NCBI GenBank assembly: GCA_017399485.1
Contig: JAFQCA010000010.1
Span: forward strand, 47,478-111,477
Source of the DNA: Alistipes sp.
GTDB lineage: Bacteria > Bacteroidota > Bacteroidia > Bacteroidales > Rikenellaceae
Direction: 5' to 3'
Length of the DNA stretch: 64,000 nucleotides
Positions 17,348 to 48,219 of the stretch are shown piece after piece (positions within the stretch are counted from its first letter, which is position 1; each line of letters starts with the position of its first letter). The position numbers were made by a program, and so were the translations under genes. The notes under the pieces were generated by a model. That model saw nothing but the letters and a program-made list of their open reading frames with translations, had not been told where the DNA came from and ran no database searches.

Positions 17348-18667
17348 TTAATCTCGACGGAAAACATCTCTTGTGTAAACCTTATCGGCCACATCATCCA
17401 GGCAAGAGTCATAGCGATTGGCTATAATCGCATCACACGCCCCCTTGAACTCCGCAAGGTCATTTACCACCCTGCTACCAAAGAAGGTTGAGCCATCCTC
17501 AAGAGTTGGCTCGTATATCACCACCGTAGCACCTTTTGCCTTGATACGTTTCATAACACCCTGAATTGCACTTTGGCGGAAATTGTCAGAGTTAGCCTTC
17601 ATAGTCAAACGATACACTCCCACGACACACTCCTTCTCGGCAGCGCCTGCAAACTCATTATTATTAGAATAATTGTAATATCCCGCCTTGGCCAAAACTT
17701 GGTCCGCAATAAAATCTTTTCGAGTTCTGTTGCTCTCCACAATGGCACTCATCATATTCTGAGGCACATCATTGTAGTTCGCCAGCAATTGTTTTGTATC
17801 CTTTGGCAAGCAATAACCGCCATAACCAAACGAGGGATTATTGTAGTGAGTACCGATACGAGGGTCCAGACCTATACCATTAATAATCGCCTGCGTATCC
17901 AGCCCTTTCACCTCAGCATAAGTATCCAACTCATTGAAATACGACACTCGAAGCGCAAGGTAGGTATTGGCAAACAACTTCACAGCCTCAGCCTCTTTCA
18001 AACCCATAAACAGAGTGGGCACATTCTCTTTAATCGCCCCCTCCTGAAGAAGTGCTGCAAATGTATGGGCCGCCTCCTTAAGATGATTGCCCGCTATAGC
18101 ACAAATAGCCTTATTCTCCTCGTCCAAAGAATCAATCATCTTAGGATAACCAACAATAATACGAGAGGGGTATAAATTATCATACAGCGCCATACTCTCT
18201 CTAAGAAACTCTGGAGAGAACAGCAAGCGGAACTTTCTAGTAACATCCCATCCATTCTCCTTGAACTTGCGCGCATACTTCACATACAGAGAGCGACAAT
18301 ATCCAACTGGAATAGTACTTTTAATAATCATTGTTGCCTCTGGATTTACCTCCAAGACCAAATCAATAACATCCTCGATGTGATGAGTATCAAAGAAGTT
18401 CTTCTGCGAGTCGTAATTCGTAGGTGCTGCAATAATCACGAACTCCGCATCTCTATATGCAGAGGCGCCGTCCAACGTTGCTACCAAATCCAACTTCTTC
18501 TCCGCAAAAAACTTTTCTATATATTCATCCTGAATAGGACTCTCTCGACGATTAATCTTCTCAACCTTTTCGGGAATAACATCCACAGCCGTCACACTAT
18601 GATGCTGCGCCAAAAGCGTGGCCATCGAAAGCCCCACATAACCTGTACCTGCTACTGCTATTTTCAT
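17348..18667 (-). CDS. ugd: UDP-glucose 6-dehydrogenase (copy 1)
   Basis: [40 protein letters not shown] (catalytic Cys) and C-terminal YTRDVFRRD. Confidence 0.95.
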
Positions 18668-18686: not shown

Positions 18687-19946
18687 TTATTTTACTATAG
18701 CCTCCTTAATACAGTCAACGATATAACGGACATCGTCATCTGTAACATAAGGACCTGCAGGCAAACACATACCAACCTTGAATATCGCCTCCGATACTCC
18801 ATTCACATAAGCCGGAGCGCTCTTATATACGGGCTGCTTATGCATAGGCTTCCATACAGGACGAGCCTCAATCTTCTTCTCAAGCATAAATACTCGAAGA
18901 GCCTCAACATTATCATTTGGCTGACAATCAGTTGTAGCACAATCTACAGCGTGAATAACACCTGCAGCACCTCCCACGGCAGTCTTTATAACCTCTTTGT
19001 AAGCATTTTCCTGTCCCTTAATCTCAAGCGATGGCTCCAATGTTATCGTACACAACCAAAAATTAGAATCATATTTACCTGTTGCTGGCTGCTTATGCAC
19101 AGTGACACCCTCAACATCAGCCAACAACGTCTCATACATTGCTTGTACATGCTTGTGATGGTCAATATGAGCCTGTGCGACAGTCATCTGACCTCTACCA
19201 ATACCTGCACATATATTACTCATACGATAATTATAGCCAATAGCCTCGTGTTGATAATACGGATATGCTTCTCTTGCCTGTGTGGCATACCACATAATAT
19301 TGTTCTTACTTTCAGAGTCTCTACAAATCAAAGCACCACCTCCTGATGTTGTAATCATCTTGTTTCCATTGAAAGAAAGAACTCCATATTTACCAAAAGT
19401 TCCCAACACACGACCATTAAACTTCGAGCCAAAGCCCTCAGCAGCATCTTCAATAACAGGAATATCATATCGATGAGCCACTTCCATAATTCTCTCACAA
19501 TCATAAGGCATACCATAAAGAGCCACCGGCACAATAGCTTTAGGCTTCTTACCGGTTTTAGCAATACGATCCTTAATAGCCTCCTCCAACAACACGGGGT
19601 CCATATTCCAGGTATCGGGTTCAGAATCAACAAATACAGGAGTAGCCCCAAGATAAGTTATAGGATGCGACGAAGCACAGAATGTAAAACTCTGCACAAG
19701 CACCTCATCACCAGGCCCCACACCACAAGCCAACAAAGCAAGATGTACAGCAGCAGTACCGGCTGATAAAGCAACCACTTCGTGATTACCACCAACAAAC
19801 TGTTTAAGTTCTTCCTCAAAGCCATTAACATTTGGGCCTAATGGCACCACCCAATTGGTATCAAAAGCCTCCTTTACATATTTTTGTTCAATACCCTCTT
19901 CGCTCATATGAGCGAGGCAGAGGTAAATCGTTTTTCTGTCTGACAT
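18687..19946 (-). CDS. DegT/DnrJ/EryC1/StrS sugar aminotransferase (PglE/WcfR-like)
   Basis: [34 protein letters not shown] (PLP Lys), GYNYRMSN and ARPVWKPMH. Confidence 0.92.
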
Positions 19947-19958
19947 AGTATAATAATA

Positions 19959-21209
19959 TTATTTACCTTGTAGATAATCAATCAAATATTCTGTTGTAAA
20001 CTCTTTTAGATTTCTTCCTTTATCACGGATTTCACAACCCATAATATTATTGTATTTATCAATCATCTCAGTCACAATATCACACTCAACATCTAGCATT
20101 TTAGCCAAAGCCTCAAAAGGAACAAGGCCTGTAGGAATATCTTCAGTTAAATAACGCAATTGAGGAACCGAGTTTTTTTGATATGTTGGGGTTCGTCCTA
20201 TAGCAGAACTCAAAGATTCCCCTTCAATTCGTTCCACTCCATATGTTAGGTCTAACCAATGTTGTGCAGAAAAAACACAGTTATTTAGATATTCCATAAA
20301 AAGTTTGCGTATTTTTCTCAATTCTTCAACTTCATCTTCATGCTCTGCCTCTAATGCTCGTAACCCATTTGTAAGTTTTCGCCAAACATCCTCTCTCTCA
20401 TCTCCTATTAAGCCAAAAACTTTAATTCCAAGCCTTTTAGCTATATTCAATCTTATTTGATCAATTGCTTCTAGCACTTCTCCAACTTCTGGTCTAGATG
20501 CAATACCATCCATATAAAATGAGAAAACTAATCCCTCCCGTTGTTTCCTATTGATTTCATCATAATTAAGTAAATACGTTGCACAATGAAATATCGCACC
20601 AATATTATTTAAAGAAGTTAGTGCTGGTATTTTGGATAATGATGCTTGAGGAAATAGCTCTTTTAGAAGTTTTATATGGTTGGGATTAAAATCTCCTTCC
20701 AACGATGATATCCAAGTTCGCTTACGCCTTTTAATTAATGACACCTCAGGCTTAGGGGCTTTACAAGAGTATGGACAAGTAGAAAAACATACTATTGGAT
20801 ATCTCTCTCCTAGAATTTTCCACAAATAAGGAGAAGCAACAGAACGAGAAGGTGATAATATAATAGGTATTCTACGTCGCCATATTCCTGCATCACATAA
20901 CGCTTGAACTGATTCTTCTTGATAAATAGATGGTAAAGCGATTATAACAACATCTACATTTTGTACAAAATAACACAAATCATTGGTAACACAACTTTCT
21001 TGTGTTAATGGGACAAATCTACTTTCTTCATTATTTTTATTAGTTGGGCGCTCTAAATATATTCCTCCTAACCTATGTATTGCATCTAATACTCTATTAC
21101 CATTTTCTGAATTTCGCGCATATCCCCAAGTATTGTACCCTCTTGATAGATAGTCTGCAAAAAAAGCTCTACCACTTTGTGAGCCCAACCCAAACACTCC
21201 GATTTTCAT
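19959..21209 (-). CDS. NAD(P)-dependent opine (octopine/nopaline) dehydrogenase family protein
   Basis: N-terminal Rossmann GVFGLGSQSG, DVVIIALPS, SLNNIGAIFH, RYLTEDIPTGLVP and GRNL match the octopine-DH family pattern. Confidence 0.85.
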   Translation of the reverse strand: MKIGVFGLGSQSGRAFFADYLSRGYNTWGYARNSENGNRVLDAIHRLGGIYLERPTNKNNEESRFVPLTQESCVTNDLCYFVQNVDVVIIALPSIYQEESVQALCDAGIWRRRIPIILSPSRSVASPYLWKILGERYPIVCFSTCPYSCKAPKPEVSLIKRRKRTWISSLEGDFNPNHIKLLKELFPQASLSKIPALTSLNNIGAIFHCATYLLNYDEINRKQREGLVFSFYMDGIASRPEVGEVLEAIDQIRLNIAKRLGIKVFGLIGDEREDVWRKLTNGLRALEAEHEDEVEELRKIRKLFMEYLNNCVFSAQHWLDLTYGVERIEGESLSSAIGRTPTYQKNSVPQLRYLTEDIPTGLVPFEALAKMLDVECDIVTEMIDKYNNIMGCEIRDKGRNLKEFTTEYLIDYLQGK

Positions 21210-21252: not shown

Positions 21253-22098
21253 TTACACAATAACTTGAACATAATCACAATATGATTGTTTCCTATCCAT
21301 TTCTGATAAGTTCCTCATTTCTACGTCAGATAGTTCAAAATCAAAAACATTATAATTATCCTCTATATGCGCCTTACTACTTGAACTTGGAATTACAACT
21401 ATGTCTCGCTGAATTATCCATCGAATTATAATCTGAGCTACAGATTTATTATGAGTTTTAGCGATTGATAACAATTTATCATTATTAAATAATTCTTTAA
21501 ACATCTCACCTTTTGTAAAAGGAGAAAATGCTTGAACCTGAATATTATGCTCTTGACAATACTGAACCACTCTTTTTTGCTGGTTTAAAAGATGTAATTC
21601 TATTTGGTTTATCATTGGATATACTCCGTAAGTTTGCTTTATCAATTCTAAATGAACAACATCACAATTACAAACACCAATCGCCCGAACTAATCCTCTA
21701 TTATAAAGCTCTAGCAACTGACCATACGCTTTTATATAATTCTTAAAGGGGGAGTGTAATAAATACAAATCAATTCTATCAGTTCCTAATCTTTTACAAG
21801 ATTCTTTATACGCACGTTTTACAGATTTGGCATTTAAATAAAGGAATCGCTTATTACCATTAAAACGTATTGCATCAATTTTTGATGTTATAAATAATTC
21901 GTCCTTATTAACATTAAATTCTCTTATTGCATCTCCCAAATCCCATTCATTAGCATATCGATTTGCCGTATCATACAAACGACAACCTTCTTCATATGAG
22001 TACTTAAATGCAATTTTTAAATCATTCCCTTTCAATGGCCAAGTTCCAAAACCAAGTATCGGCATTTTAACGCCATTAATTAGAGTCACAAACTTCAT
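21253..22098 (-). CDS. Aldo/keto reductase (AKR5/DkgA-like)
   Basis: MPILGFGTW, YDTANRY (Asp/Tyr), LFITSK, DLYLLH, RAIGVCN and INQIELH. Confidence 0.93.
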   Translation of the reverse strand: MKFVTLINGVKMPILGFGTWPLKGNDLKIAFKYSYEEGCRLYDTANRYANEWDLGDAIREFNVNKDELFITSKIDAIRFNGNKRFLYLNAKSVKRAYKESCKRLGTDRIDLYLLHSPFKNYIKAYGQLLELYNRGLVRAIGVCNCDVVHLELIKQTYGVYPMINQIELHLLNQQKRVVQYCQEHNIQVQAFSPFTKGEMFKELFNNDKLLSIAKTHNKSVAQIIIRWIIQRDIVVIPSSSSKAHIEDNYNVFDFELSDVEMRNLSEMDRKQSYCDYVQVIV

Positions 22099-22100
22099 AA

Positions 22101-23030
22101 TTATAAATATGATTTTAGGATTTGATACTTGGGGACGCCATCACACACTTGTGTACATTGGCCAGGGCAAAAATTACCCTCAATAAGTTCAAAGCCGTTT
22201 GGAGTAATCGCCACATCCCAACCCACATATCGCGCATTAGGCATAACATAGGCGACCTTCATTATATACTCCTCTAGTTGCTCAATATACGGCACCTTAA
22301 AACCTACAAATTTTATATTACTTTGAGGATGAACATCGCACCACCAACCTTGTGGATTATATCCATCCTTATCAACCTTTCCTGTTTCCATATCAATGTG
22401 ACACATTACACCGCCACTATGACAGTTACTAACAATAGTATGCTTCATTCCTACCATTAACAAAACATTTTGGAGATGAAAATCACCTTTGCTATCTATA
22501 CAGGTTTCCACTCGCAGCGTATGCAATGACGAAGGATTTAGCGCTCTTATATCTGGATGATTTACAAGCACTTCCTCTATCATATAGTGATTACCTTTTT
22601 TTACATCTGCTAAAATAGCATCTACTTCTGAAATATCAATTACTCTAACCCCGATTCCCCATGTTGATGAGGCCGGTTTTATAACAACTTTACCGTGCTT
22701 ATTAATAAATGTTCTAATTTGTTCAGGTGATACATCCTCAGTCCATATCCACTCACGTTTCACAAATGCAAAGAATCTCTTACTAAATAAATTTTTCTTT
22801 GCTAATATATTACGTGCTTCATCATCGTAAAAATTCTTATAAAACAAGCGCTTATTTCCAGATGTTACATATTCTTTTTTCTCCGCATGTGTTTTACTAT
22901 AAAACGCCATTGAGATATAGTCATCAGCTAATGCACCATACTTATAAATAGAATAAATCATATCCAGAAAATAGTATAATTTTTTCTTATCCCTTAGGGG
23001 GGGGGTGTTTAAGTGCTTGTTTACAGGCAC
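22101..23030 (-). CDS. Sugar-transfer-associated ATP-grasp protein; likely true start ATG 23064 is out of frame across a C9 tract
   Basis: VVIKPASSTWGIGV, IEEVLVNHPDIRALNPSSLHTLRV, HPQSNIKFVGFKVP and YVGWDVAITPNGFELIEGN fit the ATPgrasp_ST type. See the finding on the homopolymer. Confidence 0.85.
   Translation of the reverse strand: MPVNKHLNTPPLRDKKKLYYFLDMIYSIYKYGALADDYISMAFYSKTHAEKKEYVTSGNKRLFYKNFYDDEARNILAKKNLFSKRFFAFVKREWIWTEDVSPEQIRTFINKHGKVVIKPASSTWGIGVRVIDISEVDAILADVKKGNHYMIEEVLVNHPDIRALNPSSLHTLRVETCIDSKGDFHLQNVLLMVGMKHTIVSNCHSGGVMCHIDMETGKVDKDGYNPQGWWCDVHPQSNIKFVGFKVPYIEQLEEYIMKVAYVMPNARYVGWDVAITPNGFELIEGNFCPGQCTQVCDGVPKYQILKSYL
22997..23005 (-). repeat. C9 homopolymer (G9 on + strand) in the 5' end of the ATP-grasp gene
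   Basis: Directly counted: 9 G at 22997-23005. Removing one fuses the ATG-23064 frame with the main ORF. Confidence 0.85.
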
Positions 23031-23071
23031 TTATTTCTTTTACAATTCTATAAATTACATTCATTGTATTT

Positions 23072-24904
23072 TTATTTTATATTAAACAATCTCTCTTTTT
23101 CACTCAAGATTTGTGGATTATCATAATTGTCAACTATGTTTATCATTCCATATCTCATCGGTTTGGTTAGAAAGTCTCCTTTATACTTGGCATTAATGAT
23201 ACCTGGGGCAGTCATAAGTTTCTGCTCAATAGAAGATGATATCACATTTTCATCTCCAAGATATGGGGCCATAATTTCCAACGGACAAGGCTCATACTGA
23301 GGATGAAGTTTGGCAATCTGGTTCAGAAGAAAAGCGCTCTCATTAATCAACCAATCACGGCGTTCTTTTACTAAAGGCACATTCACCTCTTTCATTATAT
23401 CTTCTTTATTCTGACGGAATATACGAACTGCACGACGGATTAGACGCGAACTATCGATTATGTCAGCGGGACGAGCTGCATAGTTAGCTTCGCAATAACT
23501 TACAATATGGATAATATGAGGATTCATACACATCTGAAGGAAAGTAGAACGAGCCAACTGCCATTTAGCCAAATCCATATCAACACTCAACGATTCGATA
23601 CCTGTACGCGTCTCTCGGAATATAGATGCCGGAATTTTTCTTCCCATTGATATTCTATGAGCCATTTCAATACCAGCAAACATCTTAGCAAGATCTGCAT
23701 AATCTCCCGTTTCCTTTGGCTTATTGAATTGCATCTGGAGAACCATATTTTGCACACCACACATAGTCATTACAGCACTAATTAAAGCATAACTTGTTAC
23801 GATAATTGTATCGTGCGCCCAACGACTGCTCCACTGATTCGGATCATTCATCTCTACTGGGATACCATTCCTCGCCAACTCACGCACACATGCAAAGTGC
23901 TCCTTAATACTATCACGAACCATAGCAGGGCCACGGCCATCCAACTCATTAAACCAATAGAGAGGGACTGCTTGATGAACACCACGAAGCATACCAGCAT
24001 CTAAGCATTGTCTTACAAATCCTACAAGGTCTCTTACATGACAATAAGGCTTTACGCCAGGAAAGTTTCCATAACGGGAAGCCTGATAAAGAGCCACCAA
24101 ATCATTGAAATCCTTGTATGGAACACCTCCATCATTTTTGAATTTTTTGAACATCTCTGGATAACCGAAGTAGCGCTGACTAAGGTCGGATGAACCAAGA
24201 GAAATTTCATCTAGTACTCGAGCATTCGCCAACTCGCGTATGCCATCTACCGTTGGCTGAATATTTGGAGCAGGAATACCAAAGTGGCTTCTCAATACAG
24301 GAAACTCGGCTTCTCGAATACGAGTCACATAGTCATTGCAGGCTTCTATTGAAGGTACCGGTAAAGGTGGTTCATTCTTATAATCATCATTTCGAACTGC
24401 CTCACTTGCTAACTGATCAAAAAGTTCAATACCCTTAGGAACTAATTCATCATAAATTTGCTTGATAATCTGCTCGCGATTGATATCTATTTCAAAGAAA
24501 TCAACAGTTTCTGTTATGCGTTCTAATATCTTTGTGGAATTCTCACATAAAATAACCTGCAATGGAAGTTCATTAACCTTGCTCTTAAGTAGCTTAATTG
24601 TATTAGGAAGACCTGCAAACTGAATCTTAACATCATCATCAGGTTTGATGAGACCAGAAGTGTAAAAGTAATTAACCACCTTAAAAAGCTCTTGGACTGC
24701 CACATTCTCATTTTGGCGATAACTTAAGCCTATAAAACGGGGTTTATATTTATCAATAGCCTCATATAAGGCAGTATAATCAAGCGATGGAGGCAGGATA
24801 AGACTGCCCACCTTACCCAAGGTTGCAATCTTCGAGGCATTATGCATGCCTTCTGTATGTGGATCATTAGCAAGCGATGTTGCCACAAAAAATCTATTCC
24901 TCAT
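23072..24904 (-). CDS. Cobalamin-binding enzyme (N-terminal B12 Rossmann domain plus large putative TIM-barrel domain), function unknown
   Basis: SLANDPHTEG (DxHxxG), followed by FIGLSYR and QFAG in the flavodoxin-like B12 fold. The C-terminal domain has RSHFG, ISLGSSD, AVPLYWFNELDGRG, PVEMNDPNQWSSRWAHD and PHIIHIVSYCEA. There is no CxxxCxxC. Confidence 0.82.
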   Translation of the reverse strand: MRNRFFVATSLANDPHTEGMHNASKIATLGKVGSLILPPSLDYTALYEAIDKYKPRFIGLSYRQNENVAVQELFKVVNYFYTSGLIKPDDDVKIQFAGLPNTIKLLKSKVNELPLQVILCENSTKILERITETVDFFEIDINREQIIKQIYDELVPKGIELFDQLASEAVRNDDYKNEPPLPVPSIEACNDYVTRIREAEFPVLRSHFGIPAPNIQPTVDGIRELANARVLDEISLGSSDLSQRYFGYPEMFKKFKNDGGVPYKDFNDLVALYQASRYGNFPGVKPYCHVRDLVGFVRQCLDAGMLRGVHQAVPLYWFNELDGRGPAMVRDSIKEHFACVRELARNGIPVEMNDPNQWSSRWAHDTIIVTSYALISAVMTMCGVQNMVLQMQFNKPKETGDYADLAKMFAGIEMAHRISMGRKIPASIFRETRTGIESLSVDMDLAKWQLARSTFLQMCMNPHIIHIVSYCEANYAARPADIIDSSRLIRRAVRIFRQNKEDIMKEVNVPLVKERRDWLINESAFLLNQIAKLHPQYEPCPLEIMAPYLGDENVISSSIEQKLMTAPGIINAKYKGDFLTKPMRYGMINIVDNYDNPQILSEKERLFNIK

Positions 24905-24907
24905 AAA

Positions 24908-26131
24908 TTATAAGTACATATCACGGTTCAAAATATCATTTCCATTCTCATCTAGTACTTTCAATGTACTGATAGCTTTTTTTACTTTATTATCAAGATC
25001 TATCTGCTCCTTCGCTTCTATAAATATAGAGGCAACTCGATCGCTACTGGATGCTGGTGCATTAACATTCACGCCAAATGGACGAGTCAGAATATATTCT
25101 TTGATTATACCATTCTTGACAAGTTCGTCTAAACCTTCTATAGCCATAAACTTACCACCCGTCAAATAGATATGGCAACGACTATAGCATTTACGCGTAT
25201 TATGAATTTTCACCTCAGGCAGTTCTCCTAGCATAGATTCCAAATTTGCTCTTAGTACATTAAAACCTGTTACGTGTTCTATCGTCTTATACTTAGCTCC
25301 GCCACCTAAACGAGCAGAGAACTCTATTACACGAACATCATGATTATTTATTATTGCCTGAATAAGCAAAGGTGAATTCTTCACCTCGTAAGCTTTTGCA
25401 ATTTTATTGGCAATCTCTATGAGAGTTGTGGAAGTTTTTTCTGATAATACAGGAGGTATAACGCTTTGGTAGATAATCTGGGTACTTTCGTTTACTTGAA
25501 ATTTATTTAATTGGCACCACATAACTTTCTGAGCCTCCCCATTAATCACATAAAAATCTGCACTAATCTCTACCCCTTCATTAAACTCCTCTACAATAAT
25601 AGTATCAGTGAGTGTAAATCGAAAAGCATCCTTAGCAAACTCATTAAGTTCTGCTTCATTCAACACTTTGCGTACACCTTTTGATCCATTTGAATCTACG
25701 GGCTTTACAACAAGCGGATAGTTTAAGCCCTTGGTATCTAATTCATCCTTCGATGTAAATGTCTTAAACTTCGATGTAGGTATATCATTCTCTATCATCA
25801 GTTGTTTCATATACATTTTGTTGGTCAGATTCAACACTTGCTTCTTGCTTAGGCAACAAGGCAGCCCCAATTCTTCCGATACGACAGCCATAGTTAGCAA
25901 AGGTTGATCACCACATGCAGTCATGATATAGTTCACCTCTTCTGCAATAGCAATTTCTTTCACCTTATGCAAGTCCATCGTACTCTCTACGATATGCTTA
26001 TCTGCATATTTAGCAGCTACTACATTTGGCGCAAAATCTATAAGGATCACTTCCACATCCTTAAATTTAGACCTCAATTCCTGAATCAAAGCAGCCTGGT
26101 CATTGCCTCCCGCCAATATCATAATTTTCAT
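24908..26131 (-). CDS. ATP-grasp ligase (carbamoyl-phosphate-synthase/amino-acid-ligase-like)
   Basis: MKIMILAGGNDQ, NKMYMKQLM, YPLVVKPVDSNGSKGV, IVEEFNEGVEISAD and IEFSARLGGG. ATG 26131 is preferred to the track start at 26182. Confidence 0.9.
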   Translation of the reverse strand: MKIMILAGGNDQAALIQELRSKFKDVEVILIDFAPNVVAAKYADKHIVESTMDLHKVKEIAIAEEVNYIMTACGDQPLLTMAVVSEELGLPCCLSKKQVLNLTNKMYMKQLMIENDIPTSKFKTFTSKDELDTKGLNYPLVVKPVDSNGSKGVRKVLNEAELNEFAKDAFRFTLTDTIIVEEFNEGVEISADFYVINGEAQKVMWCQLNKFQVNESTQIIYQSVIPPVLSEKTSTTLIEIANKIAKAYEVKNSPLLIQAIINNHDVRVIEFSARLGGGAKYKTIEHVTGFNVLRANLESMLGELPEVKIHNTRKCYSRCHIYLTGGKFMAIEGLDELVKNGIIKEYILTRPFGVNVNAPASSSDRVASIFIEAKEQIDLDNKVKKAISTLKVLDENGNDILNRDMYL

Positions 26132-26144
26132 ATCTGTATATGTC

Positions 26145-26741
26145 TTAATTATTTCCCGTAAACGGGCCTGTACTAAGTACAATATCCTTTGATTTCAACA
26201 CATTCATTATGGTCATAAATATAATTTTGATATCTAACCACAAAGAACAATGGTCAACATACCATACATCCAGCTCAAATTTTTTTGTCCAACTAATTGC
26301 ATTCCGACCATTGACTTGAGCCCAACCTGTAATTCCTGGACGAACACCATGACGTCGTGCCTGTTCTTTACTATATAGTTCCAAATATTTTGTTAATAAA
26401 GGACGTGGACCTATTAAAGCCATATCCCCCTTTAACACATTAATCAACTGAGGAAGTTCATCAATAGATGTAGAACGGACAAATTTACCTACTTTGGTTA
26501 GACGATTCTCATTGGGCAATAAATTTCCATCTGCATCTCTTTCATCCGTCATACTTTTAAATTTCATCACTTTAAATATTTTACCATCCTTTCCTGGGCG
26601 TTCCTGATAGAAGATAGCCCCAGCTCCTTTATTGGCTATGGTTAGCCATATATAAATAATTAAAAGTATTGGCCAAATAATTAATAACACCGTAAGGGCT
26701 AGACAGAAGTCAATCAATCGTTTAAAAAAATGTTTATACAT
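26145..26741 (-). CDS. Initiating phosphoglycosyl transferase (PglC/WcfS-like, Bac_transf)
   Basis: [45 protein letters not shown] and [14 protein letters not shown]. Confidence 0.93.
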
Positions 26742-34819: not shown

Positions 34820-36128
34820 TACTACTGGTGCGATAAATTTTATTAAAATAATTTTTGTTCTTTGACATTTTGGTTTTCGATTGTTGATTGGGTTTCTGTA
34901 AGCAGTTCCCGAATGGGTGTTTTTGCAAATGCAGACACTCCTAAAATGCGAGCGACCTCTGTAATACTGTACGGAGTTTGTAATTCCGCTTTTATCTTTG
35001 CCATCAAGAGGTAAGAGATAATCGCTATCCACAAATGTATGCGTACTGCATTCTCGGAGTAACCCCACATTCGTTTGACGGTCATATTCTGCTTGATCCA
35101 CTTGAAAAACACCTCTATCTGCCAGCGATTACGATAGATATTCGCAATATCTAATGCGCTAATATCCATATTGTTGCTTATAAAGGTTAGTTCCTCGTTG
35201 GTTTCGGCATCGTAATACTGCACTACCCGCAAAGATTTAGGATATAACTGCGATGATTTTGGACCAGTGAGTAACACTAATTGGTCGGCAAGTACGCCTT
35301 CATCATCACTCTTGACACTTTCGATAATGCGATACTGCATTCTAGTTTTGGCTCTTGTAACAAAATATGCTCCAATAGAATCCATTTTGCTCAGTGCTAC
35401 CAAATCCACATACGCTTTATCCATCGTATAGATAGCATTTGGCTCAAATTGGATATAGTCCATAGCATTGCTATCGTGCCAAGTGCCATCTGAAATATGG
35501 ATAATGTCGGTATACTACCTCGCAAGTCAAGCAAAGTGTGCATTTTAACCGCTCCTCGGCTATATTTGCCCGATGCCCACGTAGCAAGATTGATACTTAC
35601 CGAGATAGATGTAGAGTCTAATGCAAAGATTGTATTCTCCAAATCTACCAAAGGTATTTTATCCTTCGTAAATAATGGTCTAACTTGTTCTATCAAGTAG
35701 TAGCCAAAGTCTTGAAAGATGCGATAGTTTCGATTGTCGTTGGCTCGTAAGAGCGTGGAATGGACTACATTCTGCTTAATTCCCAAATGATAGAGATTGT
35801 TTTGATGTGCTTTGAGGCACAAACAAATATCTCTTAACGAGGTGCAGGCAGTAATTTGCCCGAAGATGAGTTGAAGCAGATGGTTGTAAGAGTTAAGACT
35901 CTTTGCGTGAAAGTCTCCTTTGTATCGCTTAACACTCTTTTCAAACTCAAAACGGGGTATAAATTCCACTATTTGAGCGAATACGAACTTGCCCAGATGC
36001 ATAACTTTGAGGTTTTAGCCACAAAATTACCATCAACAATTTCAAATCAAAAAATCAAAGAACGCTTATAACTAATTTATATTTAACAGTTTAACTACTG
36101 CTTAGCAAAATTTATCGCATCAGTAGTC
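34820..36128 (-). mobile_element. IS4-family insertion sequence (~1.31 kb)
   Basis: TIRs actactggtgcgataaatttt (34821-34841) and aaaatttatcgcatcagtagt (36107-36127) match at 20/21. A candidate 9-bp target duplication aattaaaat lies at 34811-34819 and 36129-36137. Confidence 0.85.
34843..36002 (-). pseudogene. IS4 transposase (DUF4372 plus DDE), split by a 1-nt frameshift near 35504
   Basis: ORF 35397-36002 (ALDSTSI, AVKMHTLLDLRGSIPT) and ORF 34843-35463 (MDKAY, YRNRWQIEVFFKWIKQ). Adding one T at ACATTATCC restores ...IPTFIHISDGTWHDSNAMDY. Confidence 0.88.
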
Positions 36129-44284: not shown

Positions 44285-45598
44285 TTAATCTCTTTGGAAA
44301 ATATCGCGTGTATAAACTTTATCTTTTACATCGTCAAGACTCGCATCATATCGATTGGCAATAATTGCCTGCGAGCGAGACTTGAACTCTGCTAAATCAT
44401 TTACCACAAGGCTTCCGAAGAATGTTGCGCCATCTTCAAGTGTTGGCTCATAGATAATCACTTCTGCGCCTTTTGCCTTGATGCGCTTCATTACACCTTG
44501 AATTGATGATTGACGGAAGTTGTCAGAGTTTGATTTCATTGTAAGACGATATACGCCGACAATTACTTGCTGCTCTTTTGAAGCGTCATAACTGCTATTT
44601 GCTTCGTATGCACCTGCGAGTTCCAATACTCGGTCTGCAATAAAATCCTTTCTTGTGCGGTTACTCTCAACAATAGCCGTCATCATATTCTGTGGCACAT
44701 CTGCATAGTTCGCAAGTAACTGCTTTGTATCCTTTGGCAAGCAATAACCGCCATAACCAAACGATGGATTGTTGTAGTGAGTACCTATGCGTGGGTCGAG
44801 GCCTACACCTTCGATGATTGCTTGTGTATCCAAACCCTTCATCTCAGCATATGTATCAAGTTCATTAAAGTAACTTACTCGCAAAGCCAAATAAGTATTA
44901 GCAAACAACTTGACAGCCTCTGCCTCCTTCAAGCCCATAAACAGCACAGGTATATCCTCTTTCAGAGCACCTTGCTTAAGTAACTCCGCAAAGGTATGTG
45001 CTGCCTCTGCCAAATGATTACCTGCAATAGCCTTGATTGCATCATTCTCCTCTCCAAACTGCTCAATCATCTTAGGATAGCCAACGATGATGCGGCTTGG
45101 ATAGAGATTGTCGTAGAGAGCCTTGCTCTCACGCAAAAACTCCGGAGAAAACAACAGACGGAATTTGCGAGTAGTATCCCAACCCATCTCCTTGAACTTC
45201 TTAGCATACTTCACATACAGCGAGCGACAGTAACCAACCGGAATAGTACTCTTGATAATCATCGTAGCCTCGGGATTAACCTCCAAAACAAGGTCAATCA
45301 CATCTTCAATATGATGAGTATCAAAGAAATTCTTCTGTGGGTCGTAATTCGTCGGGGCTGCAATAATTACAAATTCTGCATCCTTATATGCCTCTTTGCC
45401 ATCAAGCGTTGCTCGCAGATTCAACTCTTTCTCCGCAAGATACTTCTCAATATAATCGTCTTGAATAGGCGATATACGATTATTTATTTTTTCAACCTTC
45501 TCAGGAATAACATCCACCGCCACAACCTCGTTGTGTTGGGCGAGCAATGTGGCTATTGACAAGCCGACATATCCCGTTCCTGCTACTGCAATTTTCAT
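44285..45598 (-). CDS. ugd: UDP-glucose 6-dehydrogenase (copy 2)
   Basis: Same motifs as copy 1, including [10 protein letters not shown]. Confidence 0.95.
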
Positions 45599-45628: not shown

Positions 45629-47560
45629 TTATCCTACTTTCTTATCAAATTTTTCGAACTGCGAGTTCTTTGAAATAAACTCCGGAACGAAATCCTTCAT
45701 CAATTTGACCATTGTTTCTATTTCAACAGCGCGAGATAAAGTTTCCAACTTATCTACCACTTGCGTAGCCTCTGTATGGTTATATTCTCTTACACGTGCC
45801 ACGCGAATTCGCTCGTGAGGTGTCGGGTCGGTATTTTCGGCATTCGAGAGAACCTCTTCATACAACTTTTCACCCGGACGTAATCCTGTATATTCAATCT
45901 GAATATCTCGGCCAAGAGTAAAGCCCGCCAACTCAATCATTCGTTTCGCAAGAGTGACAATCTTAACCGATTCACCCATATCAAATACGAAGATTTGATT
46001 ACCCTTTGACATAGTTGCAGCCTCCATCACCAAACGACACGCTTCAGGGATAGTCATAAAGAAACGGGTAATATCAGGATGTGTAACTGTCACAGGGCCA
46101 CCCTTTGAAATCTGCTCGCGGAAACGAGGAATAACCGAGCCATTAGACCCAAGCACATTTCCGAATCGAGTCGTAACGAAACGTGTTTTTCCCTTTATTA
46201 CACCCTGCTCCAAAGCCAAGCCTAAAGATTGCACATATATCTCGGCAAGTCGTTTGGTACAGCCCATAATATTAGTTGGATTCACCGCCTTATCGGTTGA
46301 AATCATAACCATTTTTTCAACATCATACTTTAGGCACATATCTGTCACATTTCTTGAGCCACAGACATTCACCAACACTGCCTCACAGGGATTCTCCTCC
46401 ATCAAAGGAACGTGCTTATATGCTGCAGCGTGGAAAACCACTTGAGGCTTATATGCCTGAAACACATAATCAAGACGAGCAGGGATACGCACATCACCAA
46501 TAACTGGCGTAAACTTCAACTTTGGGAATCTTTCCTCCAACTCCAAACGTATATTGTGCATCGGAGTCTCTGCGTTATCGAACATTATGAGGCGCTCTAC
46601 GCCAAATGTTGCAAGTTGGCGACACAACTCCGAACCAATAGAGCCTGCGGCTCCAGTAACCAAGATAGTTTTATTCTTGAAATTAGCCTCAATCTCGTTA
46701 AGTGAGATTTTTATCTCATCGCGTCCGAGCAAATCCTCAATCTTAATCTCTCTTACGACATAGCGCATCACCTTACCATCAACTACCTCATCGATAACGG
46801 GCACGATATATATTTTCACACCCAACTCTGTGCAATACGATATCAAACGTGATTGCTCATCTTGAGCATCTTTTTGACTTGAGAATAATATGGCATCTAT
46901 ATCTTTGTGATTGACCAAGTATTTCAAATCCTCAACACTCTCAAAATAATATACCGGCAAATCTGCTAATTGATGGCCCTTCATATTCATACCATAACTC
47001 AAAAATCCAACAACCTTATATCGTTCAGAATTTTGAAGTCGTTTAATTTGAGCAACCGACTTTGAACCCATACCATAAACCAAGACGTGTTTACAGTTAT
47101 CGTGGCTTCTTTGACGTTCGCGAACAACATCATAGAATATTATCATTACAACTCTGACTGCAACAAGTGCTGATATTGTAAGCAAAATATCAAAAAGCAG
47201 AGCCGTCCAAATAAAAACATTTTCTAATAAAGCAGGAGAGGTGACATTGATTATTGCAACCATAACAAAGCCTTTTCCCAATGTCGCAACTCCCAACTTC
47301 CACAATTCACGCAATGTTGAATGGCGAATAATACTTTTGTGAGTTTGCAATAACATAAAGAAGATTGCAGACGACACCAAAGAACCACCAGCCCAATATA
47401 ATATTAAACCCAAATCATACGTAAAAGAGGTAAACAATACATTGGTCAAGAATAATGCAAATAGCGATACGCCCACCGATATCAGAAGGTCTAAACCTAA
47501 TATCAATTTTGAACTTACATACTTTTCGAGATGTAACCTCGCAATAACACTTCTAAACAT
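45629..47560 (-). CDS. Membrane-anchored UDP-GlcNAc 4,6-dehydratase (PglF/CapD/WbpM-like)
   Basis: N-terminal TM helices, then TGAAGSIGSE, HAAAYKHVP, STDKAV, RFGNVLGSNGSV and GLRPGEKLYEE. Confidence 0.93.
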   Translation of the reverse strand: MFRSVIARLHLEKYVSSKLILGLDLLISVGVSLFALFLTNVLFTSFTYDLGLILYWAGGSLVSSAIFFMLLQTHKSIIRHSTLRELWKLGVATLGKGFVMVAIINVTSPALLENVFIWTALLFDILLTISALVAVRVVMIIFYDVVRERQRSHDNCKHVLVYGMGSKSVAQIKRLQNSERYKVVGFLSYGMNMKGHQLADLPVYYFESVEDLKYLVNHKDIDAILFSSQKDAQDEQSRLISYCTELGVKIYIVPVIDEVVDGKVMRYVVREIKIEDLLGRDEIKISLNEIEANFKNKTILVTGAAGSIGSELCRQLATFGVERLIMFDNAETPMHNIRLELEERFPKLKFTPVIGDVRIPARLDYVFQAYKPQVVFHAAAYKHVPLMEENPCEAVLVNVCGSRNVTDMCLKYDVEKMVMISTDKAVNPTNIMGCTKRLAEIYVQSLGLALEQGVIKGKTRFVTTRFGNVLGSNGSVIPRFREQISKGGPVTVTHPDITRFFMTIPEACRLVMEAATMSKGNQIFVFDMGESVKIVTLAKRMIELAGFTLGRDIQIEYTGLRPGEKLYEEVLSNAENTDPTPHERIRVARVREYNHTEATQVVDKLETLSRAVEIETMVKLMKDFVPEFISKNSQFEKFDKKVG

Positions 47561-47667: not shown

Positions 47668-48219
47668 TCAATCGATTACTTGAATACATTCATCGTCAAC
47701 TTTTACGCTCACAGCCAACAAATTAGGCAGTTCTATAACGATTCTTTTTACTTTAGAGCCTCTTACCGACAACAATTTACCCTCATATCCATTCATCGGA
47801 CCGCCTACAACACGGATGCGTCTGCCCTTCATAACATCACCAATCTCCTCCACCGAGTAATATTTCGGCTCTTCTGCCGCCTGTACAGCTCCGATAAAAC
47901 GATTCATATCATCCTCTGGGACAATAATAGGCTCACAATATGCCCCACCTCGTTTATATCGATATTGCAATGTGGAGGTTTTCGCCACAATAGGGTCTAA
48001 GTTTTTACGTGTATCGTGGGCAAACAGCAAATCTGGCATAACGGGTACTTCTCGCCCAATCTGTTTCCCATTTTTCTTGGTAATACGCCATTTCATTGGA
48101 GTAAACACCTCAATTCCCAACTCTCGCAATTGCTTATATGCGGGGTAAACGGCATTCGATCTTTTGAGGTCTCGCAATGCATACCAACACTTTTCTGTAT
48201 CAATGATTTCGGTGCTCAT
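47668..48219 (-). CDS. upxY: UpxY-family transcription antiterminator (NusG paralogue)
   Basis: First gene of the locus. NGN domain (WYAL..., PDLLFAH) and KOW motif (RIRVVGGPMNGYEG). Confidence 0.92.
   Translation of the reverse strand: MSTEIIDTEKCWYALRDLKRSNAVYPAYKQLRELGIEVFTPMKWRITKKNGKQIGREVPVMPDLLFAHDTRKNLDPIVAKTSTLQYRYKRGGAYCEPIIVPEDDMNRFIGAVQAAEEPKYYSVEEIGDVMKGRRIRVVGGPMNGYEGKLLSVRGSKVKRIVIELPNLLAVSVKVDDECIQVID

What the first reader, a model, noticed from the sequence alone, without database searches (positions are those of the whole stretch)
19959..21209. Opine dehydrogenase inside a polysaccharide operon, with a variant dinucleotide-binding loop
Seen: octopine-DH C-terminal motifs (NNIGAIFH, RYLTEDIPTGLVP) are intact. 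The Rossmann loop is GLGSQSG rather than the usual GxGxxG spacing, and there is an extra charged helical insert (REDVWRKLTNGLRALEAEHEDEVEELRKIRK). Inference: it acts biosynthetically on an unusual amine, perhaps the product of the B12 enzyme. Alternatively it oxidises a rearranged amine to a ketone that the adjacent AKR reduces.
Basis: partly seen in the sequence, partly recalled or inferred. Interest (0 to 1): 0.6.

Follow-up and report, generated by a model that had tools for sequence, protein, structure and literature searches.

The report
Mutase-coupled opine dehydrogenase in capsule locus
This gene encodes a real but atypical opine dehydrogenase that almost always travels with an uncharacterised vitamin-B12 mutase; in this gut Bacteroidales capsule locus the pair probably makes an unusual acidic amino acid that ligases attach to an amino sugar, by chemistry nobody has described.

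Summary
Window 19959-21209 (minus strand) encodes an intact 416-aa opine-dehydrogenase-family protein. Pfam PF02317 scores 92 bits. The model has pLDDT 94.8, and its best structural match is Arthrobacter CENDH 1bg6, followed by octopine and staphylopine-type dehydrogenases. The catalytic His208, Arg352 and Glu356/Asp357 are conserved. The nucleotide loop is truly non-canonical: across phyla only [ST]-[QKR]-S-G is invariant. A 48-residue two-helix insert defines a separate clade. The 610-aa DxHxxG, glutamate-mutase-like neighbour lies on the same strand in 29 of 33 informative loci, from Bacteroidales to Thermotogae and DPANN archaea. The two genes are often adjacent or overlapping, and sometimes form a bare two-gene unit. 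ATP-grasp ligases (23 of 37 loci) and DegT aminotransferases (17 of 37) are frequent additions. Substrates remain inferred. The most likely product is an N-carboxyalkyl (opine-type), branched acidic amino acid ligated to the 4-amino sugar. This scan has noted the same mutase-ODH module before on other DNA. I found no paper describing it.

The parts
19959..21209 (-). Opine-dehydrogenase-family gene, 416 aa (P0001), insert-type subfamily
   Evidence: ORF. PF02317 at 92 bits against a cut-off of 30. 1bg6 at E = 2e-14. AF2 model pLDDT 94.8. Foldseek top hit 1bg6, TM 0.85.
21171..21191 (-). Variant dinucleotide-binding loop G7-L-G-S-Q-S-G13. The subfamily invariant is [ST]-[QKR]-S-G.
   Evidence: Alignments; coordinates.
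21108..21134 (-). End of strand beta2 (NTWGYARNS). There is no acidic residue at position 31 and Arg32 is invariant, which suggests NADPH preference (inference).
   Evidence: secondary structure.
20715..20735 (-). Subfamily-specific basic cluster I-K-R-R-K-R-T (residues 159-165)
   Evidence: K160, R161, R162 and R164 are at least 93% conserved in 35 insert-type sequences and rare in 33 classical ones.
20586..20609 (-). NNIGAIFH motif with catalytic His208, equivalent to CENDH NVNAVMH and, by motif position, to OcDH His212
   Evidence: (invariant). Role of His212 from PMC2924402.
20271..20414 (-). 48-residue helix-turn-helix insertion (residues 266-313) that defines the clade. It contains the subfamily invariants W276, L297, R298 and R301.
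20118..20156 (-). RYLTEDIPTGLVP motif. Arg352 aligns to OcDH Arg324, the NADH-pyrophosphate sensor. Glu356 and Asp357 follow.
   Evidence: HMMER alignment to 3c7a. Invariance. Role of Arg324 from PMC2924402.
23072..24904 (-). Partner gene: 610-aa single-chain B12 (DxHxxG) protein with a GlmE-like barrel (P0121)
   Evidence: D14-P-H16-T-x-G19 is invariant. The N-terminal domain matches corrinoid-binding domains 4jgi and 1y80. Model pLDDT 86. Foldseek top hit is glutamate mutase E, 1cb7_B.
24908..26182 (-). L-amino-acid-ligase-type ATP-grasp (424 aa), a frequent third member of the module
   Evidence: Pfam ATP-grasp_4, GARS_A, LAL_C2. Homologues in many loci.
22101..23064 (-). Second ligase (ATPgrasp_ST). 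Its ATG-initiated 5' end is out of frame at a C9 tract.
   Evidence: Pfam PF14397; sequence read.
21253..22098 (-). Aldo-keto reductase (281 aa), an accessory gene of the module seen almost only in Bacteroidales
   Evidence: Pfam. Present in 9 of 37 loci.
18687..19946 (-). DegT/PglE/LegC-type nucleotide-sugar 4-aminotransferase, 12 bp downstream of the ODH
   Evidence: Pfam and NCBIfam. Intergenic spacer.
26145..26741 (-). Small PglC-type initiating phosphoglycosyl transferase (Bac_transf)
45629..47560 (-). CapD/PglF-type 4,6-dehydratase at the head of the locus. It would supply the 4-keto sugar for DegT.
   Evidence: Pfam Polysacc_synt_2 plus CoA_binding_3.

Best explanation
The gene encodes a catalytically competent member of a distinct clade of the opine dehydrogenase family. 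It works as a fixed two-enzyme unit with the neighbouring single-chain, glutamate-mutase-like B12 enzyme.

Proposed mechanism, in order of decreasing support:
1. Shown by sequence and model: a two-domain opine-DH fold. His208 is retained as acid/base and binder of the substrate carboxylate. Arg352 is retained as the pyrophosphate sensor of the cofactor. Glu356 and Asp357 are also retained.
2. Shown by comparative genomics: the gene is inherited and arranged together with the mutase across bacteria and archaea, sometimes as a bare pair.
3. Inferred: using NAD(P)H, probably NADPH, it reductively condenses an amino acid with a 2-oxo acid. The mutase rearranges the carbon skeleton of one half, either before or after this step. 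A glutamate to 3-methylaspartate type of rearrangement is the model. The product would be a branched, polycarboxylate secondary-amine (opine-type) amino acid.
4. Inferred for this locus: the LAL-type ATP-grasp ligase attaches that acid to the 4-amino group of a UDP-4-amino-4,6-dideoxy-HexNAc made by the PglF-like dehydratase and the DegT aminotransferase. The acid takes the place of the usual N-acetyl group. Further ligases (ATPgrasp_ST here; Mur-type ligases, Ddl and alanine racemase in a relative) extend it.

The 48-residue insert and the extra Arg/Lys residues probably shape the pocket for this polyanionic substrate.
For: Family and fold:
- PF02317 at 92 bits.
- CENDH 1bg6 at E = 2e-14 (single sequence) and 1.9e-18 (subfamily profile).
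- Model pLDDT 94.8.
- The Foldseek ranks 1-14 are all opine, octopine, yersinopine, staphylopine or pseudopaline dehydrogenases.

Catalytic residues:
- H208, R352 and E356 are invariant and D357 nearly so in 46 diverse sequences and across phyla.
- R352 aligns to OcDH Arg324 and C149 to OcDH Cys148. Their NADH-contacting roles are described in PMC2924402.

Coupling to the mutase:
- Same strand in every locus that has both genes. Adjacent (110 bp or less) or overlapping in 18 of the loci fetched (duplicates included).
- Present in 29 of 33 informative insert-type loci. Two of the four exceptions have it on another contig.
- Distant mutases (25-34% identical) are also followed by classical ODHs.
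- Identity to the window's ODH and to its mutase fall together across loci.
- Bare pairs occur in Thermotogae, in an archaeon and in Bacillota.

Ligation to an amino sugar:
- An ATP-grasp ligase in 23 of 37 loci and DegT in 17 of 37.
- L009 combines RmlA/RmlB-type genes, DegT, ODH, mutase, an ATP-grasp and Wzx.
- L001 adds two Mur-type ligases, Ddl and alanine racemase.
- No acetyltransferase was found among the locus ORFs of at least 120 aa.

Chemical precedent: alanopine on Qui4N in Providencia alcalifaciens O35, and N-epsilon-(1-carboxyethyl)lysine on GalA in P. rustigianii O14 (PMC10609480).

Basic subfamily-specific residues: K160, R161, R162, R164, R298, R301, R327, R339.

Weak hint of transcription: near-identical contigs from a gut metatranscriptome library cover parts of DegT, the ODH 3' end, the second ligase, the mutase and the LAL ligase.
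Against: - No substrate was tested.
- The canonical GxGxxG fingerprint is not met, and no Pfam NAD-binding domain is detected. Cofactor binding therefore rests on the modelled fold and on the conserved Arg352.
- The mutase barrel resembles GlmE only structurally (10% identity, TM 0.64). The aminomutases score nearly as well, and no sequence-level match to GlmE was obtained. A glutamate-type rearrangement is therefore a guess.
- The order of the two reactions is unknown.
- In this genome the second ligase gene is out of frame at a C9 tract, so the full decoration may be switched off.
- Two DPANN archaeal MAGs have the ODH without a detectable mutase.
Confidence: 0.5

Rival explanations
1. The ODH alkylates the sugar directly. 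It would reductively condense pyruvate or another 2-oxo acid with the 4-amino group of the UDP-4-amino-4,6-dideoxy sugar. This gives an N-(1-carboxyalkyl)amino sugar, a nitrogen analogue of the lactyl ether of muramic acid. The ATP-grasp and Mur-type ligases would then extend its new carboxylate with amino acids.
For: - The ODH lies 12 bp upstream of DegT, in the slot where an N-acetyltransferase is usual.
- The Mur-type ligases, Ddl and alanine racemase in L001 mimic stem-peptide assembly on a carboxyethyl handle.
- The basic cluster KRRKR could bind a nucleotide diphosphate.
Against: - The ODH-mutase pair occurs with no sugar, DegT or ligase genes in L041, L044, L035, L036, L043 and L006. 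The ODH substrate there cannot be a nucleotide amino sugar.
- This reading leaves the obligate mutase without a role.
Confidence: 0.15
2. The ODH acts as an imine reductase on a cyclic or intramolecular imine. The partner would be an aminomutase-like enzyme that moves an amino group. The resulting amino-oxo acid would cyclise, and the ODH-fold enzyme would reduce the cyclic imine to a substituted proline- or pipecolate-like acid for ligation.
For: - Lysine 5,6-aminomutase and ornithine 4,5-aminomutase are ranks 3-9 in the fold search of the partner.
- Opine DH chemistry is imine reduction.
- The mutase / ATP-grasp / dehydrogenase triad parallels PylB/PylC/PylD logic, and the LAL ligase has a weak PylC-like hit.
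Against: - No PLP-binding feature was identified in the partner.
- Glutamate mutase ranks first in the fold search. One relative has a weak Pfam Met_asp_mut_E hit.
- Retention of Arg352 and His208 fits a bimolecular opine reaction equally well.
Confidence: 0.12
3. One reading: the ODH runs oxidatively. It would convert the rearranged (secondary) amine to an imine and then a ketone, which the adjacent AKR reduces to a hydroxy acid.
For: - The AKR is immediately upstream in this window and in L004, L017, L018 and L022-L026.
- Opine DH reactions are reversible (established knowledge).
Against: - The AKR is present in only 9 of 37 loci, nearly all Bacteroidales, and is absent from all bare pairs and from L001 and L003. 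It is an add-on and not the ODH's obligate partner.
Confidence: 0.07
4. The protein is not an opine-forming enzyme here. The divergent nucleotide loop would mark a changed role, for example an accessory reductase or scaffold for the B12 enzyme.
For: - Strict pairing with the mutase.
- The loop lacks GxGxxG.
- Pfam detects no NAD-binding domain.
Against: - All opine-DH catalytic and cofactor-sensing residues are invariant.
- Classical ODHs with canonical loops pair with the same mutase family.
Confidence: 0.04

Closest known systems
N-(1-D-carboxyethyl)-L-norvaline dehydrogenase (CENDH) of Arthrobacter sp. 1C, PDB 1bg6
   Same: - Best sequence match (E = 2e-14, or 1.9e-18 with the subfamily profile) and best structural match (TM 0.85 on the target, rmsd 2.5 A).
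- The same two-domain fold.
- The His motif and the R-Y-x-x-E-D motif are conserved.
   Different: - About 20% identity.
- CENDH has a canonical GLGNGG loop, no 48-residue insert, no KRRKR cluster and no known B12 partner.
- The first 70 residues do not align at sequence level.
Octopine dehydrogenase of Pecten maximus (PDB 3c7a, 3c7c, 3iqd)
   Same: - The RYLTEDIP motif is identical in sequence.
- Arg352 aligns to Arg324 (the NADH-pyrophosphate sensor) and Cys149 to Cys148 (nicotinamide contact). His208 corresponds to His212 by motif position.
- Structural rank 2-4.
   Different: - OcDH Glu142, which binds the arginine side chain, aligns to Ser143 here, so the amine substrate differs.
- OcDH is an animal muscle enzyme that regenerates NAD+ and uses NADH with a canonical Rossmann loop.
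Opine-metallophore dehydrogenases CntM: staphylopine, pseudopaline and yersinopine DH (PDB 6c4t, 6c4n, 6c4l; Pfam PF10100)
   Same: - Biosynthetic, NADPH-using opine DHs that finish a polycarboxylate secondary amine.
- Bare ODH-mutase pairs here also sit beside MFS, MATE or EamA exporters. That the cnt operons have comparable exporters is from memory.
- Structural ranks 5-14.
   Different: - Lower structural similarity (TM 0.53-0.64).
- No PF10100 hit for this protein.
- The partner there is the CntL nicotianamine-synthase-like enzyme, not a B12 mutase.
Opine-type substituents of O-antigens: alanopine on Qui4N (Providencia alcalifaciens O35) and N-epsilon-(1-carboxyethyl)-L-lysine on GalA (P. 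rustigianii O14)
   Same: Chemical precedent for N-(1-carboxyalkyl) amino acids amide-linked to a 4-amino-4,6-dideoxy sugar or to a uronic acid in surface polysaccharides (PMC10609480).
   Different: - These are structures only. I found no assigned biosynthetic genes in the papers I searched.
- Nothing suggests a B12-dependent step or a branched skeleton there.
Glutamate mutase GlmS/GlmE (PDB 1cb7, 6h9e), the closest known relative of the partner protein
   Same: - The partner has an N-terminal DxHxxG cobalamin domain followed by a barrel whose best structural match is GlmE.
- Its size is about that of GlmS plus GlmE.
   Different: - Single chain, 10% identity, and no sequence-level match of the barrel.
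- The genomic partner is an opine DH instead of methylaspartase.

Membership tests
Opine dehydrogenase family (Pfam PF02317 Octopine_DH; CENDH/OcDH type) | C-terminal helical Octopine_DH domain above Pfam's gathering score | tested here: met
   92 bits against a cut-off of 30; residues 198-389 match profile positions 8-149 of 150.
Opine dehydrogenase family (Pfam PF02317 Octopine_DH; CENDH/OcDH type) | Two-domain fold: an N-terminal Rossmann-type domain plus a helical substrate domain, superposable on solved opine DHs | tested here: met
   AF2 model pLDDT 94.8, pTM 0.92. Foldseek: 1bg6 at E = 2.4e-18, TM 0.85, rmsd 2.5 A. All of ranks 1-14 are opine DHs.
Opine dehydrogenase family (Pfam PF02317 Octopine_DH; CENDH/OcDH type) | Catalytic His, the His-Asp relay and the Arg sensor (OcDH His212, Asp329, Arg324) | tested here: met
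   H208, R352 and E356 are invariant and D357 nearly invariant. R352 aligns to OcDH Arg324. Roles from PMC2924402.
Opine dehydrogenase family (Pfam PF02317 Octopine_DH; CENDH/OcDH type) | Canonical GxGxxG/A dinucleotide fingerprint after strand beta1 | tested here: not met
   The loop reads G-L-G-S-Q-S-G here. Subfamily members from other phyla lack both of the first two glycines, and only [ST]-[QKR]-S-G is invariant. There is no Pfam NAD-binding hit. This feature marks Rossmann proteins in general and is not specific to this family. I treat the protein as a divergent member.
Opine dehydrogenase family (Pfam PF02317 Octopine_DH; CENDH/OcDH type) | NAD(P)H-dependent reductive condensation of an amino acid with a 2-oxo acid | not testable with these tools
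   This needs an enzyme assay.
Staphylopine-type opine-metallophore dehydrogenases (CntM; Pfam PF10100) | Match to PF10100 and an operon with a CntL-type nicotianamine-synthase-like gene | tested here: not met
   No PF10100 hit for P0001 at E <= 0.01. No CntL-like gene in the window or in the related loci annotated. Structural similarity is lower than to CENDH.
Mutase-coupled ODH module (ODH plus single-chain DxHxxG/GlmE-like protein; unnamed, noted repeatedly in this scan) | The ODH gene is on the same strand as, and near or adjacent to, a gene for the 540-620-aa B12-domain/GlmE-like-barrel protein | tested here: met
   In the window the mutase (23072-24904) lies 1.9 kb upstream on the same strand. 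The pairing holds in 29 of 33 informative loci. The partner fold was checked.

The most novel reading that the evidence does not exclude
The ODH-mutase pair would make a previously unknown branched polycarboxylate opine, for example an N-(1-carboxyalkyl)-3-methylaspartate, which is an iminodiacid-type metal chelator. Microbes from Thermotogae to DPANN archaea would export it as a free metabolite. Gut Bacteroidales would graft it onto capsule amino sugars and, in some strains, extend it with Mur-like ligases into a peptidoglycan-like peptide. That would be the first B12-dependent radical step in surface-glycan biosynthesis and would make capsule chemistry depend on corrinoid supply in the gut.
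Probability: 0.25. Interest if true: 0.8.

Novelty: new variant of a known kind. Interest (0 to 1): 0.6.

Why it matters
Opine dehydrogenases are known from crown-gall opines, invertebrate muscle and metallophore pathways. A clade locked to a B12 radical mutase would add a new biosynthetic logic to the family: rearrange the skeleton, join two acids through nitrogen, then ligate the product.

Bacteroidales capsules shape phage susceptibility and host immune responses. A capsule decoration that needs cobalamin would tie capsule chemistry to corrinoid competition in the gut.

The non-canonical [ST]-Q-S-G loop is a natural test case for how a Rossmann domain can bind a dinucleotide without its glycine fingerprint. 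The enzyme could also interest biocatalysis, as a reductive aminase for polyacidic substrates.

Tried and rejected
- Complex prediction of the ODH with the mutase (residues 1-584): no verdict, score 0.00. This is evidence neither for nor against binding.
It found only an archaeal SRP RNA and, in L034, a SAM riboswitch on the opposite strand upstream of the ODH.
- Residue-level mapping of the mutase onto GlmE: sequence and profile searches of the PDB matched only the cobalamin-binding domain. The glutamate 'arginine claw' could not be checked.
The claim is unverified.
- Literature: no paper contains both 'glutamate mutase' and 'opine dehydrogenase'. Nothing links opine DH with Bacteroides capsules.
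- The search for related loci with the diverse alignment A2 failed for lack of a conserved block. It was repeated with A1.
- Contexts of three further classical ODHs (P0261, P0263, P0288) lay on contigs too short to show a mutase.
- Sampling 400 species genomes of the order found the ODH only in the window's own genome. Order-level co-occurrence statistics were therefore not possible.
- RNA library: ODH bases 20404-21209 had no cover in the one run laid. This says nothing about expression.
- The careful tree search did not finish. The quick IQ-TREE result was used.
Full report
OBSERVATION. Window 19959-21209 holds a 416-aa ORF on the minus strand. GLGSQSG is at residues 7-13, NNIGAIFH at 201-208, and RYLTEDIPTGLVP at 352-364. 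The charged stretch REDVWRK...IRK is at 272-302. Coordinates were verified. Pfam assigns only the C-terminal Octopine_DH domain (PF02317, 92 bits against a cut-off of 30, E = 4.8e-26). It assigns no N-terminal NAD-binding family, and NCBIfam has no model for the protein.

FOLD AND FAMILY. The best solved relative by sequence is Arthrobacter CENDH, 1bg6. The single sequence gives E = 2e-14 and a subfamily profile gives 1.9e-18. An AlphaFold2 model built on a 46-sequence alignment is very confident (pLDDT 94.8, pTM 0.92). Foldseek against the PDB ranks 1bg6 first (TM 0.85 on the target, rmsd 2.5 A). Pecten octopine DH comes next, then the yersinopine, staphylopine and pseudopaline dehydrogenases, and only after those the ketopantoate reductases.

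CATALYTIC RESIDUES. H208, R352 and E356 are invariant, and D357 nearly so, in an alignment that spans classical opine DHs and all phyla sampled. HMMER aligns R352 with OcDH Arg324 and C149 with OcDH Cys148. According to PMC2924402, Arg324 is the sensor that binds the NADH pyrophosphate, Cys148 contacts the nicotinamide, and His212 binds the substrate carboxylate. OcDH Glu142, which holds the arginine side chain, aligns with Ser143 here, so the amine substrate is not arginine-like.

THE TWO ODDITIES ARE CLADE TRAITS. The nucleotide loop is one residue longer than the classical G-x-G-x-x-G. In orthologues from other phyla both of the first two glycines are replaced, as in 'HTVSSQSGR', 'YVASTQSGS' and 'NTASSQSGR'. 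Only [ST]-[QKR]-S-G is invariant. HMMER does not align the first 70 residues to any solved ODH. Position 31 at the end of strand beta2 is never acidic, and Arg32 is invariant. From this I infer NADPH preference.

The insertion spans residues 266-313 and is modelled as two helices, 273-289 and 294-308. It is 48-52 residues long in every member of the clade, 33 in L010, 10 in L013, and 2 in classical ODHs. It carries subfamily-invariant residues W276, L297, R298 and R301. It lies at about the same distance after the catalytic His as OcDH Trp278, a side-chain-binding residue. I therefore infer, without a superposition, that it reshapes the amine pocket.

Other clade-specific invariants are a basic cluster, K160-R161-R162-(K163)-R164, together with H317, R327 and R339. 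These fit a polyanionic substrate. A quick maximum-likelihood tree separates this clade (plus L013) from 32 classical ODHs by a branch of length 1.37 with SH-aLRT 100. In a 1.84-billion-protein representative library only about five 50%-identity clusters match in one unbroken stretch. The rest are 30%-identical, 360-aa classical enzymes.

SURROUNDINGS IN THE WINDOW. The gene lies in a classic Bacteroidales capsule locus on the minus strand. In order of transcription the locus holds:
- a UpxY/NusG-like gene (47668-48219);
- a PglF/CapD-like dehydratase;
- Ugd and a 4-epimerase-like gene;
- RmlACDB and an FnlABC-like trio;
- an IS element;
- Wzx, glycosyltransferases and an EpsG-type polymerase;
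- a small PglC-type initiating transferase (26145-26741);
- an LAL-type ATP-grasp (24908-26182);
- a 610-aa protein with no Pfam hit (23072-24904);
- an ATPgrasp_ST ligase (22101-23030);
- an AKR (21253-22098);
- the ODH;
- a DegT/PglE-type aminotransferase 12 bp downstream (18687-19946);
- a second Ugd and an NTP_transf_5 gene.

No acetyltransferase is present among the ORFs of at least 120 aa. The five-gene block therefore occupies the place where bacillosamine-type loci normally N-acetylate the 4-amino group.

THE PARTNER. I checked the 610-aa protein independently.
- D14-P-H16-T-x-G19 is invariant in 19 and in 17 diverse homologues.
- A profile aligns residues 3-111 to the corrinoid-binding domains 4jgi and 1y80 and to methionine synthase, with the DxHxxG motifs in register.
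- Its model (pLDDT 86) matches the glutamate mutase E subunit best (1cb7_B, TM 0.64). Lysine and ornithine aminomutases come next, then acyl-CoA mutases.
- One distant relative has a weak Pfam Met_asp_mut_E hit.

This agrees with note e1-5203679. The barrel has no sequence-level match to GlmE, so the substrate cannot be assigned.

LINKAGE. Around close homologues the order LAL - mutase - (variable ligases) - ODH recurs. The variable part is ATPgrasp_ST with or without the AKR. In L001 it is two Mur-type ligases, a Ddl-like ligase and an alanine racemase.

Divergent members keep the pair:
- L006 has ODH, mutase and an MFS transporter, with overlapping genes.
- L009 has RmlB/RmlA-type genes, DegT, a GT and a methyltransferase, then ODH, mutase, a weak ATP-grasp and Wzx.
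- L010 has the ODH followed directly by a B12-domain ORF.

A scan of species-representative genomes returned 30 full-length orthologues at 46-69% identity. They come from Bacteroidales, Hydrogenedentes, several Bacillota classes, Chloroflexota, Thermotogae, Woesearchaeota and Aenigmatarchaeota. tblastn and hmmsearch find the mutase on the same strand in 23 of these. Four of the seven negatives are cut by a contig end on the expected side. Over all distinct insert-type loci the count is 29 of 33 informative. Two of the four exceptions have the mutase on another contig, and two small DPANN MAGs show none.

Outside Bacteroidales the mutase starts 11-106 bp after the ODH. Mutases only 25-34% identical to the window's are also next to ODHs, but of the classical 345-355-aa type with canonical loops. 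These are L011 and L012 and L015, which lies on a contig with archaeal markers. L013 has an intermediate ODH. In L041 (Thermotogae), L044 (an archaeon), L035 and L036 the pair stands among unrelated genes. Exporters sit beside it in L006, L035 and L015.

Accessory genes in the 37 distinct loci are ATP-grasp in 23, DegT in 17, the PglC-type transferase in at least 10, the AKR in 9, and Mur-type ligases in 2.

INTERPRETATION. The ODH and the mutase form a self-sufficient unit that acts on common metabolites. The ligases and the amino-sugar genes are context-specific consumers of its product.

The most economical chemistry has two steps. A glutamate-mutase-type skeleton rearrangement is combined with reductive N-carboxyalkylation, in either order, and yields a branched polycarboxylate opine. 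Here the LAL ligase would amide-link that acid to the 4-amino sugar, and further ligases would extend it.

Opine-type acyl groups on Qui4N and on GalA are known chemically in Providencia O-antigens (PMC10609480). I found no paper that combines glutamate mutase with opine dehydrogenase, or opine DH with Bacteroides capsules.

Each is weighed in its own section. The AKR route is weakened most, because the AKR is not core.

STATE IN THIS GENOME AND EXPRESSION. The ODH, the mutase and the LAL ligase are intact. The ATPgrasp_ST gene's ATG frame runs into a C9 tract and stops, as note e1-5203678 reported. The extension step may therefore be phase-variable. One gut metatranscriptome library contains near-identical contigs over parts of DegT, the ODH 3' end, the second ligase, the mutase and the LAL ligase. 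This is a weak hint of transcription only, because DNA carry-over cannot be excluded.

PRIOR NOTES OF THIS SCAN. The mutase-ODH module has been noted at least 12 times in at least 10 other genomes. One of those notes describes another ODH with the same atypical loop and acidic insert (e1-5060366). I reproduced the pairing independently. I did not find the c-di-AMP riboswitch that one note reported for relatives. I could not read the 2009 paper said to have flagged the pair.

VERDICT. The protein is a divergent member of a known enzyme family that defines a separate, mutase-coupled clade. Its substrates and product are unknown, and the pathway appears undescribed. I class it as a new variant of a known kind, with interest 0.6.

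Noticed in passing
window 22987-23064 (minus strand): Directly after the mutase stop, an ATG at 23064 opens the second ATP-grasp gene. The frame runs into a C9 tract and ends at TAA. The long ATPgrasp_ST frame (22101-23030) continues in another register from a GTG. This looks like a slippage on/off site, and another finding has already reported it.
   Followed up: partly
window 34843-36002 (minus strand): An IS element is split into two overlapping ORFs (DUF4372 at 35397-36002 and DDE_Tnp_1 at 34843-35463). It sits inside the capsule locus between the FnlC-like 2-epimerase and the Wzx flippase, and could be polar on the downstream genes, including the ODH block.
   Followed up: no
L013 / L014 (whole loci): The LAL - 236-aa protein - mutase - ODH - DegT module sits on sediment contigs beside a T4 endonuclease V-like gene (Pyr_excise) and many small unannotated ORFs. 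The element may be viral.
   Followed up: no
L015:8001-13285: On a contig with archaeal markers (ribosomal L35Ae, RNase P p30) the pair is followed by a Ddl-like ligase, a DAP-epimerase-like gene and a C26 gamma-glutamyl-peptidase-like gene. MFS and EamA transporters lie upstream. This looks like a small peptide-like metabolite pathway.
   Followed up: no
L047 (G404:C93:17870-19705): In the genome that holds the 553-aa, N-terminally extended ODH (P0243, L007), the mutase lies on another contig inside a 967-aa open frame. It may be fused to an extra domain.
   Followed up: no
L001:12236-15938: Four tandem RhuM-family genes (about 300 aa each) are inserted between the ODH and the DegT gene of a related Bacteroidales capsule locus.
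   Followed up: no
L004:11779-21242: Downstream of the ODH in another relative lie an AAA_15/ABC-type ATPase gene and a 1530-aa TIR-domain gene, wedged before the DegT gene. This may be a defence island inside the capsule locus.
   Followed up: no
window 17010 / 25836: One RNA-library contig joins 17010 to 25836 and skips 8.8 kb that include the Ugd, DegT, ODH, AKR, ligase and mutase genes. The shorter side is only 21 letters, so this may be another strain or a repeat artefact.
   Followed up: no
window 17348-18667 and 44285-45598: Two UDP-glucose 6-dehydrogenase paralogues lie in the same capsule locus, one at the head and one directly after the DegT gene at the tail.
   Followed up: no
L034:873-980 (minus strand): A SAM riboswitch (93.7 bits) lies about 280 bp upstream of the ODH on a Chloroflexota contig, but on the opposite strand, so it probably serves the divergent neighbour.
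   Followed up: no
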